Assembly (NCBI GenBank): GCA_036643775.1
Contig: JAVXRI010000010.1
Location: 4,752 to 68,751, forward strand
Source of the DNA: Pseudomonas sp.
GTDB lineage: Bacteria > Pseudomonadota > Gammaproteobacteria > Pseudomonadales > Pseudomonadaceae
Direction: 5' to 3'
Length of the DNA stretch: 64,000 nucleotides
Within the stretch, counting starts at the first letter, position 1. Every line of letters begins with the position of its first letter. The notes under the pieces are model-generated. The model searched no databases. It was not told the DNA's origin and saw nothing but the letters and a program-made list of their open reading frames with translations. Position numbers and translations under genes: made by a program. Below are positions 3,182 through 22,981 of the stretch, piece by piece.

Positions 3182-4189
3182 ATGGCTCTCAGTAAAGAAG
3201 TGCCGGAGTTTGACATCGACGATGAAGTGCTCCTGATGGAGACGGGCATCGTTTTGGAAACGGATGTGGTGTCAGACGAACCTGCTGTATCTTCGGTTCG
3301 GACCAGGGCTAAACAAGGCTCTACGCTCAAGCAGCACAAGTACATCGATTATACTCGGGCGCTTGATGCAACCCAGTTGTACCTCAATGAAATCGGTTTT
3401 TCGCCTTTGCTCTCGCCAGAGGAAGAGGTTCATTTTGCGCGTCTGTCGCAAAGTGGCGATCCGGCGGGGCGCAAGCGCATGATCGAAAGCAACTTGCGTC
3501 TGGTGGTGAAAATCGCCCGGCGTTATGTCAATCGTGGGCTTTCGCTGCTGGACCTGATCGAAGAGGGCAACCTGGGGTTGATTCGTGCGGTCGAGAAGTT
3601 CGACCCTGAACGTGGTTTCCGTTTCTCTACCTATGCCACCTGGTGGATTCGGCAAACCATCGAACGGGCGATCATGAACCAGACCCGTACCATTCGCTTG
3701 CCCATTCATGTGGTCAAGGAGCTCAACGTTTACCTGCGCGCAGCGCGCGAACTGACCCAGAAGCTCGATCATGAACCGTCGCCGGAAGAGATCGCCAGCC
3801 TCCTGGAGAAACCGGTGGGTGAGGTCAAGCGCATGCTCGGGCTCAACGAGCGTGTATCGTCAGTGGATGTGTCCCTGGGGCCAGACTCTGACAAGACCTT
3901 GCTCGATACCCTGACCGATGACCGTCCCACCGATCCTTGTGAGCTGCTCCAGGATGATGACCTGTCCCAGAGCATCGACCAATGGCTGAGTGAGCTGACT
4001 GACAAGCAACGTGAGGTGGTAATTCGCCGTTTCGGCCTGCGGGGGCATGAAAGCAGTACCCTGGAGGATGTGGGACTGGAGATAGGCCTGACCCGTGAGC
4101 GGGTTCGCCAGATCCAGGTCGAGGGGCTCAAGCGCTTGCGTGAGATCCTCGAGAAGAATGGCCTGTCCAGTGAGTCGCTGTTTCAGTAA
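3182..4189 (+). CDS. rpoS: RNA polymerase sigma factor RpoS
   Basis: [46 protein letters not shown], region 4 HTH; downstream of nlpD. Confidence 0.99.
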
Positions 4190-4520: not shown

Positions 4521-4652
4521 TGTGTCTACGGACTGACACAGGCTTTCAAGGATGACGGCCAAGGACATCGCAGGATGCGATTCATCAGGATGATGAAAGG
4601 GAACAAAGGGACTACGGAAAAAATGTGGGCGGGTTAAACCGCCCCTTTTTTT
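4521..4652 (+). ncRNA. rsmZ: RsmZ, RsmA/CsrA-sequestering sRNA
   Basis: Repeated A(N)GGA motifs (ACGGA, AAGGA, CAGGA, AGGGA), 3' hairpin GGGCGG-gttaaa-CCGCCC plus T-run; canonical rpoS-fdxA position. Confidence 0.93.
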
Positions 4653-7742: not shown

Positions 7743-7910
7743 TACAGAAACTTGGCTCGCAGTGTCGTTTAGACCAAAGGCAAGCGGGCAATGGTACAGG
7801 GATTTTGCGCGCGATGCCGAGGCCAACAGCCACGGCGCGACCATTTGTCCATGCATTTGCGTGCATATCGGCAATTGCTTTTTGCATAAGCAGGTTGCAT
7901 TATGCGGATT

Positions 7911-8645
7911 ATGCAAAAACGCAACGTAGCATCCGTCTTGAGAGCACTGCTCGACCGTCACGGTATCTCCCCCACGGAGTTGCACCGGCGTACCGGCGTG
8001 CCGCAATCCACCCTGTCGCGCATTCTCAGCGAGAAGATCGTCGATCCTTCTGACAAACATGTGTCGAAGATCGCCGAGTATTTCGGCGTGAGCACCGATC
8101 AATTGCGTGGCCGCGTCGAACTCGGTGAAAGCCGCGAAGCCGCGCCCGGGCGCAGTCACGCCGAGTTGCGCGATATCAGCCTGTGGGATGACGACACCCC
8201 TGTCGAGGATGACGAGGTATCCATTCCGTTTCTTCGTGAGGTCGAGTTGGCAGCAGGATCAGGACGATTCGTCATCGAGGAAAGCGAGAAGGCCAGCCTG
8301 CGCTTCGGCAAGCGCAGCCTGCGCCACAACGGCGTGCAGTTCGACCAGGCCAAGTGCGTCACGGTGCGCGGCAACAGTATGTTGCCGGTGTTGCGCGATG
8401 GCGCCACGGTAGGGGTCAACGCTGGCAAGAGTGGCATCGGCGATATCGTCGACGGTGACCTGTACGCCATCAACCATAACGGCCAGCTGCGGGTGAAGCA
8501 GCTCTATCGTCTGCCTACCGGTATTCGTCTGCGCAGTTTCAACCGTGATGAGCATCCGGATGAAGACTACAGCTTCCAGCAGATGCAGGAGGAGCAGATC
8601 AGCATCCTCGGCCACGTCTTCTGGTGGGGCATGTACGCCCGCTGA
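7911..8645 (+). CDS. prtR: PrtR-like repressor (Cro/CI HTH + S24 autopeptidase)
   Basis: HTH ([18 protein letters not shown]), Ala-Gly cleavage region (ELAAGSG), catalytic Ser (VRGNSM) and Lys (RVKQL); start MQKRNV at 7911. Confidence 0.9.
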
Positions 8646-8806: not shown

Positions 8807-9013
8807 TTGTCTCAAGCCGGTCATCACCGGTAGCGACAAAGGCAGCGATGAACAGGCCTGAACTGTTCAGAGGGTTGGCAACTGGCCCGGGTGTGCAGCG
8901 TAAAGCACCACAAGCAGTTATCCGGCGGGCAGGTGGCCGCGGTCGGAGGAACAATTTGAAGCGGAGTCGTCCAGCGCACCAGTCGTGGCAGGCGATTCGA
9001 CAACGCATTACTG

Positions 9014-9040
9014 AAAAGCCTGGAAACGCCGGGCTTTTTG
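9014..9040 (+). terminator. Intrinsic terminator in the tailocin leader, upstream of the holin
   Basis: AAAAGCCTGG-aaacg-CCGGGCTTTTT; flanks GCATT/AATGC can extend the stem. Confidence 0.75.
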
Positions 9041-9114
9041 GAATGCCGAGTGGTCGGTTTTAAACACATGCCGCAGGCAAGGTGCCGTGCGGAACAATAA
9101 AAGGAGACAGGACA

Positions 9115-9468
9115 GTGACAAGCGAGCAACAGACGTTACTGGAAATGCCGATCTGGCTGGTGATCGTCCTGGCCTTGCTGGGCGGTCTCTCTGGCGAGAT
9201 GTGGCGTGCGGACAAGGCCGGTGCCCGAGGCTGGGCGCTGTTTCGGCGCCTGCTTTTGCGTTCGGGAGCCTGCATGGTCTGCGGCGTATCCACGGTGATG
9301 CTGCTGTATGCCAGCGGCATGTCGATCTGGACCGCCAGTGCCTTTGGCTGCCTGACGGCGATGGCCGGTGCCGATGTGGCTATCGGGCTTTATGAGCGGT
9401 GGGCCGCACGGCGCTTGGGGGTCGAAACACAGGTCTCGGAGTTTCAACGCCAGGACAACAAGGAGTGA
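9115..9468 (+). CDS. Phage/pyocin-type holin
   Basis: 117 aa with hydrophobic helices (PIWLVIVLALLGGLSGE...AMAGADVAIGLY) and charged C-terminus; AAGGAG RBS, GTG start; first gene of the operon as in R-pyocin clusters. Confidence 0.85.
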   Translation: MTSEQQTLLEMPIWLVIVLALLGGLSGEMWRADKAGARGWALFRRLLLRSGACMVCGVSTVMLLYASGMSIWTASAFGCLTAMAGADVAIGLYERWAARRLGVETQVSEFQRQDNKE

Positions 9469-20754: not shown

Positions 20755-20822
20755 CGCCGCGGTCATACGTGCAGCCATCGGACCCCGCCTCGTGCGGGGT
20801 CTGCTTTTCTGGAGCATGAGCC

Positions 20823-21854
20823 ATGCAACCTGAGTTTCGCATCGTTGCCGACGGCAGCGACATCACCGCCGTGATCAACGACCGCTTGTTGTTGCTGCGC
20901 ACATCCGATAAGCCAGGTATGGAGTCAGACGATTTCGAGCTGCGCATCGATGACCGTGACGGTGCCGTGACCCTTCCTGCGCGGGGAGCACTCATCGAGA
21001 TTCATCTGGGCTACGCCGGCCGGACGCTGACCCGTCTGGGGCGCTACACCGTGGATGAAGTCGAACTGTCCGGGCCCCCCGACAGTGTGATCATTCGTGG
21101 CAAGGCCAGCGACATGCGTGGTACGGGTAAGACCACACGTAGTGGCAGTTGGGAGAATGTCCCGTTACAACAGATCGTGCGTGACATTGCCGCGCGCAAT
21201 GGTTGGCAGCCGGCGTGTCCGGTGCTGACCAAGGTGCTGCGGGTCGATCAGTTCAACGAATCCGATTTCAATTTCATCACCCGCCTGGCCAAGCAGTATG
21301 ACTGCACTGCCAAGGTCGGCGACGGCACGTTGCTGGTGTTGCCGCGTCAGGGTGGGCAGAGCGCTGGCGGCACAGCCCTGGGCGTTGTTCGCCTACGGCG
21401 CGCCGATGTCACGCGCTGGCAGTTTGGTCTGGCCGACAAGGGCACGTACAAGGCCGTGCAAGCCCGCTATCAGGACCCGCGCAGCGGTCAGCTCAAGGTG
21501 GTCGAGCTGGCCAACAGCGATGCACCGCAGGGGCTGGCGCCGGTGCACCGGGACCGTCATCTCTATCCGGACCAGGCCTCGGCGCAGCAGGTGGCCAGGG
21601 CCAGGCTGGCGGCGCTCAATCGCAGCACGGCCAATGTTCAACTGGACATGCCGGGACGCACTGATCTGTTTACCGAGCGCACGGTCGACCTGCAGGGCTT
21701 CAAGAGCGGACTTGATGGCGAGTACCTGGTGGAGTCAGTGGCGCAGCTGTTCACCACTTCCGGCTGGACGACTACGGTCGTGTGCAATGGCGGTAAACAG
21801 GGCAAGGCCAGGGCCAAGGGCAGCAGGCCGCGCAAGGCCGAGGTCTCCCGATGA
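20823..21854 (+). CDS. Baseplate hub / late control protein D
   Basis: DITAVINDRLL, LGRYTVDEVELSGPPD, QFNESDFNFITRLA. Confidence 0.93.
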   Translation: MQPEFRIVADGSDITAVINDRLLLLRTSDKPGMESDDFELRIDDRDGAVTLPARGALIEIHLGYAGRTLTRLGRYTVDEVELSGPPDSVIIRGKASDMRGTGKTTRSGSWENVPLQQIVRDIAARNGWQPACPVLTKVLRVDQFNESDFNFITRLAKQYDCTAKVGDGTLLVLPRQGGQSAGGTALGVVRLRRADVTRWQFGLADKGTYKAVQARYQDPRSGQLKVVELANSDAPQGLAPVHRDRHLYPDQASAQQVARARLAALNRSTANVQLDMPGRTDLFTERTVDLQGFKSGLDGEYLVESVAQLFTTSGWTTTVVCNGGKQGKARAKGSRPRKAEVSR

Positions 21855-21873: not shown

Positions 21874-22425
21874 ATGGAAGTAACCGAAAAGACGCTGTTA
21901 TTGATTTTCCCCAACGCCCGCCAGCAAGCGGGCGTTTTTGTTCCAGCCTTGAACACTGCCATGCGGCGCTGGGAGATCGACTCTGCGCGGCGCACAACGG
22001 CGTTCCTGGCGCAGATCGGTCATGAGTCCGGTCAACTGCGCTACGTCAAGGAGTTGGGCAATGATCGCTACCTGTCGCGTTATGACACCGGCAGTCTCGC
22101 CCTGCGCCTGGGCAACAGCCCCGAGGCCGATGGCGATGGTCAGCGGTATTGCGGTCGGGGACTGATCCAGATCACCGGGCGTAACAATTACCACGCCTGC
22201 AGCATGGCGCTGTTCGGTGACGAACGTTTGCTGGACCTGCCACAACTGCTGGAACAGCCGCGATGGGCGTGTGAGTCGGCGGCCTGGTTCTGGCATTCGC
22301 GCGGGCTCAATCAACTCGCCGACCGGGGTGAGTTCAACCGCATCACCCGCCATATCAATGGTGGGCTCAATGGTCTGGAGGATCGCTTGAAGCTCTGGGC
22401 GCGGGCCCGTGAGGTGCTGTGTTGA
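21874..22425 (+). CDS. Endolysin, glycoside hydrolase family 19
   Basis: AFLAQIGHESGQL, YCGRGLIQITGRNNY, INGGLNGLEDR; GAGG RBS before ATG 21874. Confidence 0.95.
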   Translation: MEVTEKTLLLIFPNARQQAGVFVPALNTAMRRWEIDSARRTTAFLAQIGHESGQLRYVKELGNDRYLSRYDTGSLALRLGNSPEADGDGQRYCGRGLIQITGRNNYHACSMALFGDERLLDLPQLLEQPRWACESAAWFWHSRGLNQLADRGEFNRITRHINGGLNGLEDRLKLWARAREVLC

Positions 22426-22922
22426 GGCGCCTGCAGGCCGGCTTGCTGATAACGCTGTTGCTGCTGGTAGCCGGGCTGACCTGGCAGGTTCAGGCATGGC
22501 GCTACGGTACAACGCTGGCGCAACAGGCGCAGGCGCATGCCCAGGAGCGCCAGCAACAGGCTCAAGCCTTGGCTCGTCAGCAGCGTGACGAACGCCAGCA
22601 ACGCCAGGTGCTGGAGCAGCAGATAGAGGCCAATGACCAATCCCATTACCAGGAGCTGCTCGATGCTCAACAGGTTCAAGCTCGTTTGCGTGATCGCCTG
22701 GCTACTGCTGATCTGCGGCTGTCAGTCCTCCTTGACACCGACGCCGGCACCGCGCCCGGTCTGCCTGCCACCACCGGCGCCGGCAGCCTGGATCATGGTG
22801 CCCTACGCGCCCGACTTGACCCGGCGCATGCTCGACGAATTGTCGCCATCACCGATCGGGGCGACCAGGGACTGATCGCTCTGCGCGCTTGCCAGGCTTA
22901 TGTGCGGACGCTACAGCGTTGA
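22419..22922 (+). CDS. Inner-membrane spanin (Rz-like)
   Basis: N-terminal TM, Q-rich coiled coil, LRDRLATADLRLSV, DRGDQGLIALRACQAY. Confidence 0.9.
   Translation: MLRRLQAGLLITLLLLVAGLTWQVQAWRYGTTLAQQAQAHAQERQQQAQALARQQRDERQQRQVLEQQIEANDQSHYQELLDAQQVQARLRDRLATADLRLSVLLDTDAGTAPGLPATTGAGSLDHGALRARLDPAHARRIVAITDRGDQGLIALRACQAYVRTLQR
22663..22875 (+). CDS. Outer-membrane lipoprotein spanin (Rz1-like), embedded in Rz
   Basis: AGGAG RBS 7 nt upstream; signal MLNRFKLVCVIAWLLLICG-C; Pro-rich mature part; +1 frame entirely within Rz. Confidence 0.85.
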   Translation: MLNRFKLVCVIAWLLLICGCQSSLTPTPAPRPVCLPPPAPAAWIMVPYAPDLTRRMLDELSPSPIGATRD

Positions 22923-22981
22923 GGATGTGTGCCAGGCGGTAGCTGGTGTAGGGTAGGCGACAGTCTTTCAAGGAGCTTGCC

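What the first reader, a model, noticed from the sequence alone, without database searches (positions are those of the whole stretch)
21913..21942. Intrinsic-terminator-like hairpin hidden in codons ~14-23 of the endolysin
Seen: AACGCCCGC-cagcaa-GCGGGCGTT followed by TTTGTT, a perfect 9-bp stem with the same CCCGC/GCGGG core as the intergenic hairpins, overprinted on NARQQAGVFV. Inference: a safety catch that truncates endolysin/spanin transcripts unless RNAP is antitermination-modified or tightly ribosome-coupled, delaying lysis until tails are built. It would be invisible to gene-level annotation.
Basis: partly seen in the sequence, partly recalled or inferred. Interest (0 to 1): 0.7.

Follow-up and report, generated by a model that had tools for sequence, protein, structure and literature searches.

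The report
Conserved terminator hairpin inside endolysin gene
The first 70 bases of this Pseudomonas tailocin's cell-wall-cutting gene also encode an RNA hairpin plus U-run that looks like a transcription stop signal, and evolution has kept it across many Pseudomonas phages and tailocins, so it is probably an undescribed control point for cell lysis.

Summary
AACGCCCGC-cagcaa-GCGGGCGTT plus TTTGTT lies at 21913-21942 (+), in codons 14-23 of a GH19 endolysin (21874-22425). This gene ends an R-type tailocin operon next to cinA-recA.

It is not chance. Across 118 homologues, 90 keep all nine pairs. These include Pseudomonas tailocins, the P. aeruginosa pyocin endolysin gene (presumably PA0629) and true phages. 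Synonymous sites in the stem are nearly frozen. The first base of codon 16 (Arg, Gly or Ser) covaries with the silent third base of Ala19, and this switch occurred at least seven times. Silent positions are T-enriched for about 12 nt past the stem and no further.

The same 5' module also precedes three other endolysin folds as a roughly 26-codon mini-ORF.

So an RNA hairpin with a U-tract is under selection. That it actually terminates transcription is inferred, not shown. Three P. aeruginosa RNA-seq runs show no drop in depth and no pile-up of 3' ends at the site.

My best reading is a conditional or leaky terminator (attenuator or insulator) at the entrance of the lysis cassette. I found no report of it in the literature searched.

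The parts
21913..21921 (+). 5' arm of the hairpin (AACGCCCGC; codons N14 A15 R16)
   Evidence: Read and folded. Silent-site entropy is 0.17-0.28 bits, against 1-1.9 in flanking conserved codons.
21922..21927 (+). 6-nt loop (cagcaa; codons Q17 Q18). The sequence and the two residues vary freely among homologues; the length is fixed at two codons.
   Evidence: 77 distinct hairpin versions are listed.
21928..21936 (+). 3' arm of the hairpin (GCGGGCGTT; codons A19 G20 V21)
   Evidence: The third base of A19 covaries with the first base of codon 16: CG 93, GC 17, AT 4, unpaired 4. V21 is GTT in 63 of 64 sequences, although GTT makes up 9% of Val codons.
21935..21946 (+). U-rich tract after the G+C core (TTTTTGTTCCAG on DNA; codons V21-P24)
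   Evidence: Third-position T, observed against expected from codon usage: codon 21, 95 vs 9.4; codon 22, 75 vs 20.8; codon 23, 64 vs 8.8; codon 24, 41 vs 11.5; codon 25, 3 vs 8.8; codon 26, 3 vs 4.3.
21874..21912 (+). First 13 codons of the endolysin. They are A+U-rich with locally rare codons, variable in sequence, and hold the hairpin 33-39 nt from the start codon.
   Evidence: The distance from start codon to hairpin is constant (+33 to +45) in 60 of 80 loci.
21874..22425 (+). GH19 (class I chitinase-like) endolysin gene, 183 aa
   Evidence: Translation. Pfam PF00182 at 3.2e-6. 318 or more relatives in Pseudomonas genomes.
22419..22922 (+). i-spanin (Rz), overlapping the endolysin stop; embedded o-spanin Rz1 at 22633-22875. 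These are the genes whose transcription lies behind the hairpin.
   Evidence: Pfam Phage_lysis and Rz1.
20823..21854 (+). gpD-like tail/baseplate hub protein, the last structural gene. Its stop lies 19 nt before the endolysin start, with no terminator in between.
   Evidence: Pfam Phage_GPD; sequence.
22923..22981 (+). Spacer between spanin and cinA without any terminator-like hairpin. The intragenic hairpin is therefore the only strong terminator-like site between the tail genes and the recA terminator.
   Evidence: Sequence. In 80 loci, sense-strand hairpin+T sites cluster only at endolysin +33..+45 (60 loci) and about +3200-3400, roughly where recA ends (37 sites).
20779..20813 (+). Intergenic hairpin + U-run + CTGGAG ribosome-binding site before gpD. 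Similar modules lie at 11284-11301 and 15289-15305. These are the same kind of punctuation as the endolysin element.
   Evidence: In viral contigs, the generic module GCGGGCGTTTTCATTTCTGGAG-N-ATG is common between genes.
8836..9047 (+). Conserved non-coding operon leader ending in a terminator-like hairpin (9014-9040). It lies downstream of the PrtR-type repressor gene (7902-8645) and upstream of the holin gene (9115-9468). It is context for any antitermination model.
   Evidence: 79-93% nucleotide identity in 172 of 301 genomes of the genus. The reading frame is not kept. There is a conserved core with a compensatory pair in one stem.

Best explanation
The element is an intrinsic-terminator-type RNA signal written into the first 70 nt of the endolysin mRNA. 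It has a 7-9-bp G+C-rich stem, a 6-nt loop and a U-tract of about 8-12 nt.

It marks the entrance of the lysis cassette (endolysin, Rz, Rz1) in Pseudomonadaceae tailocins and temperate phages. It is the only conserved terminator-like site between the tail genes and the recA terminator.

Proposed mechanism. RNA polymerase arriving from the structural genes, or from any stray promoter, transcribes the stem and U-run about 65 nt after the endolysin start codon. There it either releases the transcript or reads on. Read-through would be favoured in two ways:
- A ribosome translating codons 1-13 follows closely enough to melt the 5' arm.
- The polymerase has been made terminator-resistant at the operon's leader.

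The element would thus insulate or throttle endolysin-spanin transcription relative to tail genes.

Shown: the structure, its selection at the RNA level on the sense strand, selection on the U-tract, and its portability to other endolysin genes.

Inferred: that it terminates, and what relieves it.
For: 1. Silent sites. In 81 orthologues, silent-site entropy at codons 14-21 is 0.1-0.45 bits. For the same amino acids elsewhere in the gene it is 1.0-1.9 bits.

2. Pairing. In 118 homologues, 90 keep 9 of 9 pairs and 14 keep 8 of 9.

3. Covariation.
- The pair in columns 19-30 is C-G in 93, G-C in 17 and A-T in 4. This means Arg/Gly/Ser16 is matched by GCG/GCC/GCT at Ala19.
- L023 (ATGCCCGT/ACGGGCAT) and L071 (AATGCCCGC/GCGGGCATT) carry further double changes.
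- In the pair count, 90.7% of cells are paired against 83.6% in shuffles. There are 22 double-change cells against 7.9 +/- 2.3, with 0 of 500 shuffles as high. Versions with the partner slid by 1-3 columns give 34-56%.

4. Independent events. On a tree built from the rest of the protein, the G-C allele needs at least 7 changes.

5. RNA of the sense strand. G-T combinations are frequent departures (12 each at the two outer pairs). They pair only as G-U in + strand RNA.

6. U-tract. Silent T is enriched at codons 21-24 and not at codons 25-26. The mean is 6.4 T in the 8-nt tail, against 4.39 +/- 0.06 after codon resampling.

7. Rarity. Only about 2 of 250 comparable sites in this genome lie in sense inside a coding sequence.

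8. Breadth.
- It is present in P. aeruginosa's pyocin endolysin gene (L141) and 20 or more other species of that genus.
- It is present in phages Cruim01, phiPSA1, JBD44, KT1 and PG1, whose endolysins are about 50-62% identical to this one.
- It gave at least 120 viral-contig hits for each of two alleles. Of 243 matches, 219 lie in a GH19 N-terminal context.

9. Portability. About 20 viral contigs keep the start codon, 12 codons, hairpin and U-run as a mini-ORF of about 26 codons. GGAG-NN-TGA-N1-3-ATG and a different endolysin follow. The other endolysins are PF00959 lysozyme, PF07486 hydrolase and a lambda-R type matching PDB 1AM7 at 3e-55. In L454 the hairpin survives without the mini-ORF start.

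10. Replacement. Three tailocin lineages that lost the intragenic stem (L006, L029, L035) carry a strong canonical terminator about 45-65 nt upstream of the endolysin start.

11. Context.
- The operon begins with a conserved leader plus terminator.
- In one organism's RNA contigs, the leader stands at depth about 39 against 6-12 for the operon.
- In another organism, a 172-nt contig holds the leader alone.
Against: There is no direct evidence of termination.

- P. aeruginosa RNA-seq laid on L141 (hairpin 1237-1260, U-run to 1266). In run X61, depth is 190-211 just before the hairpin and 235-256 just after. It is about 295 in the upstream gene and 365-387 further downstream. No place near 1265 was flagged where molecules end.
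- Runs X60 and X62 show a trough centred upstream of the hairpin, not a step after it. That trough may be strain divergence.
- One metatranscriptome contig runs unbroken from the fibre gene through the endolysin to cinA.
- Published 3'-end mapping in P. aeruginosa had almost no reads in PA0628-PA0632, so it is uninformative.
- A 6-nt loop is on the large side for a terminator.
- The P. aeruginosa U-run is interrupted (UUUUCGUUG).
- Phages often carry a second terminator just upstream of the endolysin ribosome-binding site. A single-purpose model does not explain this.
- The sequences are phylogenetically related, so the counts overstate independence.
Confidence: 0.5

Rival explanations
1. The hairpin acts after transcription rather than as a terminator. 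It could block 3'-to-5' exonucleases, keeping tail-gene mRNA stable while the endolysin part decays. It could serve as a 5' stabiliser after cleavage in the A+U-rich first 39 nt. It could throttle translation, with ribosomes queuing at +40 and occluding the start codon. The hairpin plus U-run could be a landing site for Hfq or ribosomal protein S1.
For: RNA-level selection on the sense strand is shown, but no termination is seen in RNA-seq. The X61 trough lies in the intergenic region and first codons, just upstream of the hairpin, as a processing site might. In the mini-ORF variants, the U-run lies about 10 nt upstream of the next gene's GGAG. Generic hairpin/U-run/CUGGAG modules precede many phage genes. 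This fits a role in translation or stability of the downstream cistron.
Against: A stability barrier also predicts a step in depth at the hairpin, and none is seen. A pure translation throttle needs no U-tract, yet silent T is selected for about 12 nt past the stem. Lineages that lost the element carry canonical terminators upstream of the ribosome-binding site, where no ribosome queuing on the endolysin ORF could occur.
Confidence: 0.25
2. The conserved 30 nt is mainly a DNA-level module joint. It would be a patch of near-identical sequence at which phages and tailocins exchange lysis cassettes by homologous recombination. The hairpin shape would be secondary.
For: GH19 stubs end within a few bases of the U-run, and three other endolysin types are attached there. 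The stretch is near-identical in phages whose endolysins are only about 50% identical. Allele switches on the tree could partly be recombination of 5' ends. An earlier follow-up in this scan read one such stub as a recombination scar.
Against: Homology for recombination needs identity, not pairing. Yet three alleles differ in sequence and each keeps perfect complementarity, and other double changes and G-U pairs keep the stem. The loop between the arms is free to vary. The element is as well kept in chromosomal, vertically inherited tailocin loci of about 70 species. The mini-ORFs keep a start codon, an open frame and a fixed stop-to-start spacing.
Confidence: 0.1
3. The inverted repeat is a binding site on double-stranded DNA for a dimeric regulator (an operator inside the gene).
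For: It is a perfect 9-bp inverted repeat with a 6-bp spacer, the usual shape of such sites. Changes that keep symmetry also keep pairing.
Against: Conservation is asymmetric: a T-run is selected on the 3' side only. G-T combinations are tolerated, which break DNA symmetry but pair in RNA. Three different half-site sequences occur in phages with unrelated regulators and in tailocins. Pfam and PHROGs find no candidate regulator conserved with it.
Confidence: 0.05
4. The hairpin is a by-product of the conserved peptide PNARxxAGVF in a G+C-rich genome, or pure chance.
For: Ala, Arg and Gly codons are G+C-rich, and GCC/CGC/GGC are preferred codons. The peptide region is conserved in the protein family.
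Against: The probability of the stem given the peptide is 0.003. Rare codons are fixed: GTT in 95 of 96 sequences, TTT in 74 of 96. A silent base covaries with an amino-acid change. GH19 homologues outside Pseudomonadaceae keep the fold but not the hairpin. The element also persists without the GH19 protein.
Confidence: 0.02

Closest known systems
Leaky internal intrinsic terminators of phage late operons, read through by modified polymerase (lambda tR' with Q; HK022 put RNA; P. aeruginosa AlpA acting on the alpBCDE lysis operon)
   Same: It is a G+C hairpin plus U-run on the sense strand, placed in front of lysis genes. The operon has further hairpin/U-run sites and a leader that itself ends in a terminator. 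AlpA is cited as an antiterminator for a Pseudomonas self-lysis operon in PMC12796719.
   Different: Here the terminator lies inside the coding sequence of the endolysin, about 40-70 nt after its start codon, not in a leader. Pfam and PHROGs find no Q-, N- or AlpA-like protein in the cluster. Neither termination nor antitermination has been shown.
Translation-coupled attenuators in which the leader ORF runs through the terminator (E. coli pyrBI type; from my own knowledge)
   Same: In the mini-ORF variants, an ORF of about 26 codons spans the hairpin and U-run. It stops 1-3 nt before the endolysin ATG, with a GGAG in between. In the GH19 genes, the gene's own first 24 codons play that part. 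A closely following ribosome would prevent hairpin formation.
   Different: No sensing step is evident, such as nucleotide-sensitive pausing or rare-codon stalling. No alternative antiterminator pairing was found. Coupling is inferred only.
ORF-internal and 5'-proximal 3' ends found by Term-seq in E. coli (Adams et al. 2021, PMC7815308) and premature 3' ends in P. aeruginosa (PMC8297930)
   Same: These papers establish that premature termination sites within or just inside coding sequences exist and can be regulatory (abstracts; text).
   Different: Those sites were found experimentally and are mostly species-specific. This one is defined by deep sequence conservation and covariation across phages and tailocins, and it has no experimental 3' end yet. 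The P. aeruginosa data set has about 0-2 reads in PA0628-PA0632.
sdi stem-loop at the 5' end of lambda S (holin), which sets the holin/antiholin start choice (from my own knowledge)
   Same: It is an RNA hairpin at the very start of a lysis gene that tunes lysis.
   Different: sdi acts on start-codon choice, has no U-tract and lies at the start codons. This element begins at +40 and carries a selected U-run.
Module joints and gene stubs of mosaic phage genomes
   Same: GH19 stubs in front of other endolysins end at this element.
   Different: Pairing, not identity, is what is conserved.

Membership tests
Intrinsic (Rho-independent) terminator | G+C-rich stem of about 5-14 bp with a short loop | tested here: met
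   The stem is 9 bp with 7 G-C pairs and a 6-nt loop. Free energy is -19.1 kcal/mol for the 61-nt window, z = -3.2.
Intrinsic (Rho-independent) terminator | U-rich tract of about 7-9 nt directly after the stem, on the transcribed (sense) strand | tested here: met
   The tract is UUUUUGUU after the G+C core. Silent-site T is enriched at codons 21-24 only. The reverse strand has no T-run.
Intrinsic (Rho-independent) terminator | Structure kept in relatives by compensatory change | tested here: met
   Three alleles (C-G, G-C, A-T) occur at one pair, with other double changes elsewhere. There are 22 double-change cells against 7.9 in shuffles, and at least 7 switches on the tree.
Intrinsic (Rho-independent) terminator | RNA 3' ends, or a fall in transcript level, at the U-tract in vivo | tested here: inconclusive
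   This was tested on the P. aeruginosa orthologue only. Three raw-read RNA-seq runs show no step and no pile-up of ends. The libraries are not 3'-end libraries and the growth conditions are unknown. Contig-only data are uninformative.
Intrinsic (Rho-independent) terminator | Release of transcript by purified RNA polymerase in vitro | not testable with these tools
   This needs a single-round transcription assay.
Processive-antitermination-dependent operon (Q/N/put/AlpA type) | An antiterminator protein or RNA loaded near the promoter | tested here: inconclusive
   Pfam and PHROGs find no such protein. A highly conserved non-coding leader is present. It matches no Rfam family, and its function is unknown.
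Processive-antitermination-dependent operon (Q/N/put/AlpA type) | Terminators inside the operon that are bypassed only by polymerase started at the cognate promoter | not testable with these tools
   Terminator-like sites exist at 9014-9040, 11284, 15289, 20779 and 21913. Whether they are bypassed was not measurable.
Leader-peptide (translation-coupled) attenuator | A short translated ORF overlapping the terminator | tested here: met
   This is met in the variant form: about 20 viral contigs carry an intact mini-ORF of about 26 codons across the hairpin, with stop and restart 1-3 nt apart. In the window, the endolysin ORF itself overlaps the hairpin.
Leader-peptide (translation-coupled) attenuator | A regulated step (stalling or pausing) that decides between terminator and read-through | not tested
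   No alternative pairing or sensing codons were identified.

The most novel reading that the evidence does not exclude
The hairpin and U-run form a portable 'lysis licence' cassette of Pseudomonas phages and tailocins. It would be a terminator that polymerase passes only under one of two conditions: it was made terminator-resistant by the conserved, non-coding operon leader RNA (a put-like, protein-free antitermination system), or a ribosome is translating the short ORF across it. Endolysin and spanin mRNA would then be made only from the authorised, SOS-controlled promoter. The cassette would stay in place whichever endolysin fold is plugged in behind it.
Probability: 0.2. Interest if true: 0.8.

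Novelty: new variant of a known kind. Interest (0 to 1): 0.62.

Why it matters
The endolysin of the P. aeruginosa R/F-pyocin cluster (PA0629, Lys) is described as essential, together with the holin, for explosive cell lysis. That process releases cell contents including DNA and matters for early biofilm development (PMC13411936). The related endolysins of plant-associated pseudomonads release tailocins used in strain competition.

A cis-acting RNA signal hidden in the first 70 nt of these genes would be a previously unrecognised control point for when, and in how many cells, lysis happens. It also matters practically. Codon-optimising or recoding these endolysin genes would silently remove the element. 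Annotation pipelines cannot see it.

It is also a clean case of overlapping codes, in which the choice of an amino acid (Arg, Gly or Ser) and a silent base three codons later are tied together by RNA pairing.

Tried and rejected
- RNA-seq for the window's own strain. Only metatranscriptome contigs holding 11% or less of the sampled words were found.
- P. chlororaphis locus L031. Only Logan contigs were available. Their depth is flat per contig, so they cannot show a step.
- The last run search, on the conserved leader, returned only contig-level runs. Laying them gave hints on the leader but nothing decisive at the endolysin hairpin.
- Published P. aeruginosa 3'-end mapping (PMC8297930). The supplement lists PA0628-PA0632 with about 0-2 reads, so it is uninformative.
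- Literature searches on tailocin, pyocin or endolysin with terminator or antitermination found no description of this element.
- Rfam has no family at the hairpin or the leader.
- I considered that the conserved leader might encode a small arginine-rich, N-like protein (ATG at 8848, about 71 codons). I rejected this because the frame is broken or the start codon is missing in most of 30 copies.
- I considered Met30 as the true start, with the hairpin in a 5' UTR. I rejected this because no Shine-Dalgarno sequence precedes it and residues 1-29 are part of the family's conserved N-terminus, also outside Pseudomonas.
- I tested whether upstream and intragenic terminators are mutually exclusive. 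They are not. Phage-type loci carry both, and Fisher's test gives p = 0.09.
- A classical frameshift reading of the U-run was rejected. There is no X XXY YYZ heptamer in frame, and the hairpin lies upstream of the run, not downstream.
Full report
**1. What is there**

The window carries an R-type tailocin cluster in the position typical of fluorescens/putida-group pseudomonads. Reading along the + strand:
- a PrtR-like S24 repressor gene (7902-8645);
- a promoter region and a non-coding leader;
- a Hol-type holin gene (9115-9468);
- baseplate, fibre, sheath, tube and tape-measure genes, then gpU, gpX and gpD (20823-21854);
- a GH19 endolysin gene (21874-22425);
- Rz/Rz1 spanins (22419-22922 and 22633-22875);
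- cinA, recA and recX.

These assignments rest.

The reported hairpin is exactly as described. AACGCCCGC (21913-21921), cagcaa, GCGGGCGTT (21928-21936) and TTTGTT occupy codons 14-23 (NARQQAGVFV) of the endolysin. It is the minimum-free-energy fold of its neighbourhood (-19.1 kcal/mol, z = -3.2, 0 of 200 shuffles as stable). It is one of the two strongest terminator-like sites in 20 kb.

**2. It is not chance and not a by-product of the protein**

From this genome's codon usage, the peptide would be encoded with a 9-bp stem with probability 0.003, or 0.0007 with TTT as well.

My scan of the whole 6.05-Mb assembly found 250 hairpin+T-run sites of comparable strength. Only about two lie on the sense strand well inside a coding sequence. 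One is this site. Two further apparent cases lie 6 and 16 nt from a crudely called start and are probably the upstream gene's terminator.

In 80 orthologous loci from named Pseudomonas species plus the window, silent-site entropy at codons 14-21 is 0.1-0.45 bits. For the same amino acids at other conserved positions of the gene it is 1.0-1.9 bits. Val21 is GTT in 63 of 64 sequences, whereas Val58 is GTT in 3 of 79.

**3. Pairing is what is conserved**

I collected 118 homologous 66-nt segments without gaps. They come from tailocin loci, the second genus that contains P. aeruginosa, and five sequenced phages. All nine pairs form in 90 of them, and eight of nine in 14 more.

The most telling pair joins the first base of codon 16 to the third base of codon 19. 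Arg (CGC) goes with Ala GCG, Gly (GGC) with Ala GCC, and Ser (AGC) with Ala GCT. The counts are 93, 17 and 4, with only 4 unpaired. A silent base thus tracks an amino-acid replacement three codons away. No protein constraint explains that.

L023 and L071 carry other double changes.

On 50 distinct sequences the tool's controls agree:
- 90.7% of cells are paired, against 83.6 +/- 0.9% after shuffling partners.
- With the partner slid by 1-3 columns, 34-56% are paired.
- There are 22 double-change cells against 7.9 +/- 2.3, with 0 of 500 shuffles as high.

On a maximum-likelihood tree built from the rest of the protein, the G-C allele requires at least seven changes. The switch, or an exchange of 5' ends that always preserved pairing, therefore happened repeatedly.

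G-T combinations are common departures (12 each at the two outer pairs). They pair as G-U only in RNA of the + strand. This points to the mRNA and away from a DNA cruciform or a protein-binding palindrome.

**4. The U-tract is selected too**

Among 96 distinct sequences with an intact inner stem, T at the silent third position compares with codon-usage expectation as follows:

| Codon | Observed | Expected |
|---|---|---|
| 21 | 95 | 9.4 |
| 22 | 75 | 20.8 |
| 23 | 64 | 8.8 |
| 24 | 41 | 11.5 |
| 25 | 3 | 8.8 |
| 26 | 3 | 4.3 |

Selection for U therefore extends about 12 nt beyond the G+C core and then stops. That is the footprint of a terminator's U-tract, and a mere hairpin would not need it. 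The sequences are related, so these counts are not independent events, but the spatial pattern is sharp.

**5. Distribution**

The element is present in:
- about 70 of 80 tailocin-type loci;
- the genome's own second GH19 endolysin on another contig, which has an extra terminator just upstream;
- P. aeruginosa's pyocin endolysin gene (L141, from a 6,316,979-bp genome; AACGCCCGC-ctcgtc-GCGGGCGTT-TTCGTT) and most of its genus;
- phages Cruim01, phiPSA1, JBD44, KT1 and the Stutzerimonas phage PG1, whose endolysins are about 50-62% identical to this one.

Of 243 matches, 219 lie in a GH19 N-terminal context.

The four GH19 homologues from other families of the order whose N-terminal region I recovered keep the protein motif but not the hairpin.

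One clade (P. mosselii, P. soli and relatives) and a few single lineages have lost it. Three of those lineages (L006, L029, L035) carry a strong canonical terminator about 45-65 nt upstream of the endolysin start instead. Upstream and intragenic terminators are not mutually exclusive, however. Phage-type loci usually have both.

Across the 80 loci of 6.5 kb each, sense-strand terminator-like sites cluster at only two places. One is +33 to +45 of the endolysin (60 loci). The other is about 3.2-3.4 kb downstream, roughly where recA ends by the window's gene spacing (37 sites). The window has no terminator between Rz and cinA.

**6. The module is portable**

About 20 viral contigs carry the same start codon, about 12 codons (MPITxQQLLQILPNAG..AGVF), hairpin and U-run. 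There the frame stops after about 26 codons. GGAG-NN-TGA-N1-3-ATG follows, and then a different endolysin:
- phage lysozyme PF00959 (L338, L377 and others);
- cell-wall hydrolase PF07486 (L295; L424 and L439 by similar context, not scanned);
- a lambda-R-type transglycosylase (L336, matching PDB 1AM7 at 3e-55; L423 and L436 by a near-identical N-terminus).

In L454 the mini-ORF's start is gone but the hairpin and U-run remain.

An earlier follow-up in this scan (e1-1963011) met one such stub. It called the stub a recombination scar that ends at a conserved hairpin. My data agree on the observation. They add that the stubs keep an open frame and a fixed stop-restart spacing, and that they precede three enzyme folds. 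This argues that the 5' module is retained for its own sake.

The same scan shows that hairpin/GUUUUCAUUUCUGGAG/ATG is a generic intercistronic module of these phages. The window has three such modules, at 11284, 15289 and 20779. The endolysin element looks like one of these punctuation marks absorbed into a coding sequence.

**7. Does it terminate?**

This is the weak point. Only P. aeruginosa offered raw reads. In three RNA-seq runs laid on L141 (endolysin start 1198; stem 1237-1260; U-run to 1266) there is no fall in depth after the hairpin.

Run X61 gives these summed depths:

| Position on L141 | Depth |
|---|---|
| 1002-1043 | about 295 |
| 1149-1190 | about 155-160 |
| 1212-1253 | 190-211 |
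| 1275-1316 | 235-256 |
| 1443-1484 | 365-387 |

No position near 1265 was flagged as a place where molecules end. The trough lies in the intergenic region and first codons, upstream of the hairpin.

A strong constitutive terminator is therefore excluded for that species under those unknown conditions. A conditional one is not excluded. Bulk pyocin mRNA comes from the induced subpopulation, in which the endolysin is translated and any antitermination would be active.

Contig-level data are uninformative for the hairpin.

**8. Context bearing on the mechanism**

The operon's leader (about 8836-9047) is conserved at 79-93% nucleotide identity in 172 of 301 genomes of the genus, often in 2-3 copies. 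It is not a gene, because the frame is not kept. It has an almost invariant core of about 125 nt, with a compensatory change in one stem. It ends in a terminator-like hairpin at 9014-9040. It matches no Rfam family.

In one organism's transcriptome contigs, the leader has depth about 39 against 6-12 for the operon body. In another organism, a 172-nt contig contains the leader alone. This is what termination at the leader would give.

Pfam and PHROGs find no Q-, N-, PrtN- or AlpA-like protein in the cluster.

It does not prove it, and the phages that share the endolysin element have other regulators.

**9. Verdict**

Shown: a terminator-shaped RNA element is maintained by selection on the sense-strand mRNA in the first 70 nt of endolysin genes of Pseudomonadaceae phages and tailocins. 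It is also maintained independently of the GH19 protein.

Inferred, at about 50%: it works as a conditional or leaky transcription terminator that insulates or throttles the lysis cassette, relieved by close ribosome coupling and/or terminator-resistant polymerase.

Main rivals:
- a post-transcriptional role (stability, processing, translation, Hfq or S1 binding), about 25%;
- a recombination joint, about 10%;
- a DNA operator, about 5%;
- a coding by-product, about 2%.

I found no published description. I rate it a new variant of a known kind (an intragenic, deeply conserved, portable terminator-like signal), with interest 0.62.

Noticed in passing
window 8836-9047 (+): The non-coding leader between the repressor-controlled promoter and the holin gene is 79-93% identical in 172 of 301 genomes of the genus, often in 2-3 copies. 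It is not an ORF, because the frame is not kept. It has an invariant core of about 125 nt and ends in a terminator (9014-9040). It matches no Rfam family. RNA contigs suggest it accumulates as a short transcript.
   Followed up: partly
own genome, contig C21, about 440-1060 (outside the window): A second GH19 endolysin, of prophage type, carries the same module (AACGCCCGC-ccagtc-GCGGGCATT-TTTGTA, with one mismatch). A canonical terminator and a GGAG lie immediately upstream of its start.
   Followed up: partly
L338 12689-13169; L377 3729-4254; L336 5036-5575; L295 12727-13197 (IMG/VR contigs): Mini-ORFs of about 26 codons (MPxxxQQLLxILPNAGxxAGVF..*) span the hairpin. A stop-restart junction (GGAG-NN-TGA-N1-3-ATG) follows, and then a GH24 lysozyme, a lambda-R-type transglycosylase or a Hydrolase_2 enzyme.
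   Followed up: yes
L006, L029, L035, about 45-65 nt upstream of the endolysin start (locus position about 2935-2955): Tailocin lineages whose intragenic stem has decayed carry a strong canonical terminator just upstream of the endolysin ribosome-binding site. The P. mosselii/P. soli clade has only a weaker hairpin there (GGCGGC..GCCGCC + TTTCGATC).
   Followed up: partly
window 22923-22981: There is no terminator between the spanin stop and cinA. Transcripts that pass the endolysin hairpin should run on into cinA-recA. One metatranscriptome contig indeed spans fibre, endolysin, spanin and cinA in a related strain.
   Followed up: no
L141 (P. aeruginosa) about 2438-2541: Downstream of the endolysin and spanin genes, many read molecules begin at 2541 and depth rises several-fold in runs X60 and X62. 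Reads of all three strains diverge from the reference after 2438. This could be a promoter or processing site before the next pyocin module, plus a strain difference.
   Followed up: no
window 4521-4652 (+): There is a full-length match to the RsmZ/PrrB small RNA (Rfam RF00166, 141.6 bits), in the region upstream of the mutS-side border of the cluster.
   Followed up: no
window 8848-9063 (+): An ORF of about 71 codons for an arginine-rich peptide can be read in the leader of this strain, and it resembles an N-type antiterminator at first sight. It is not conserved as a reading frame in 30 copies, so it is probably spurious.
   Followed up: yes
window 21874-21912 and orthologues: The 12-13 codons before the hairpin use locally rare, A/U-ending codons (ACT and ACA for Thr, CTT/CTA/TTG for Leu, GAA over GAG). 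This leaves an unstructured A+U-rich run between the start codon and the hairpin.
   Followed up: no
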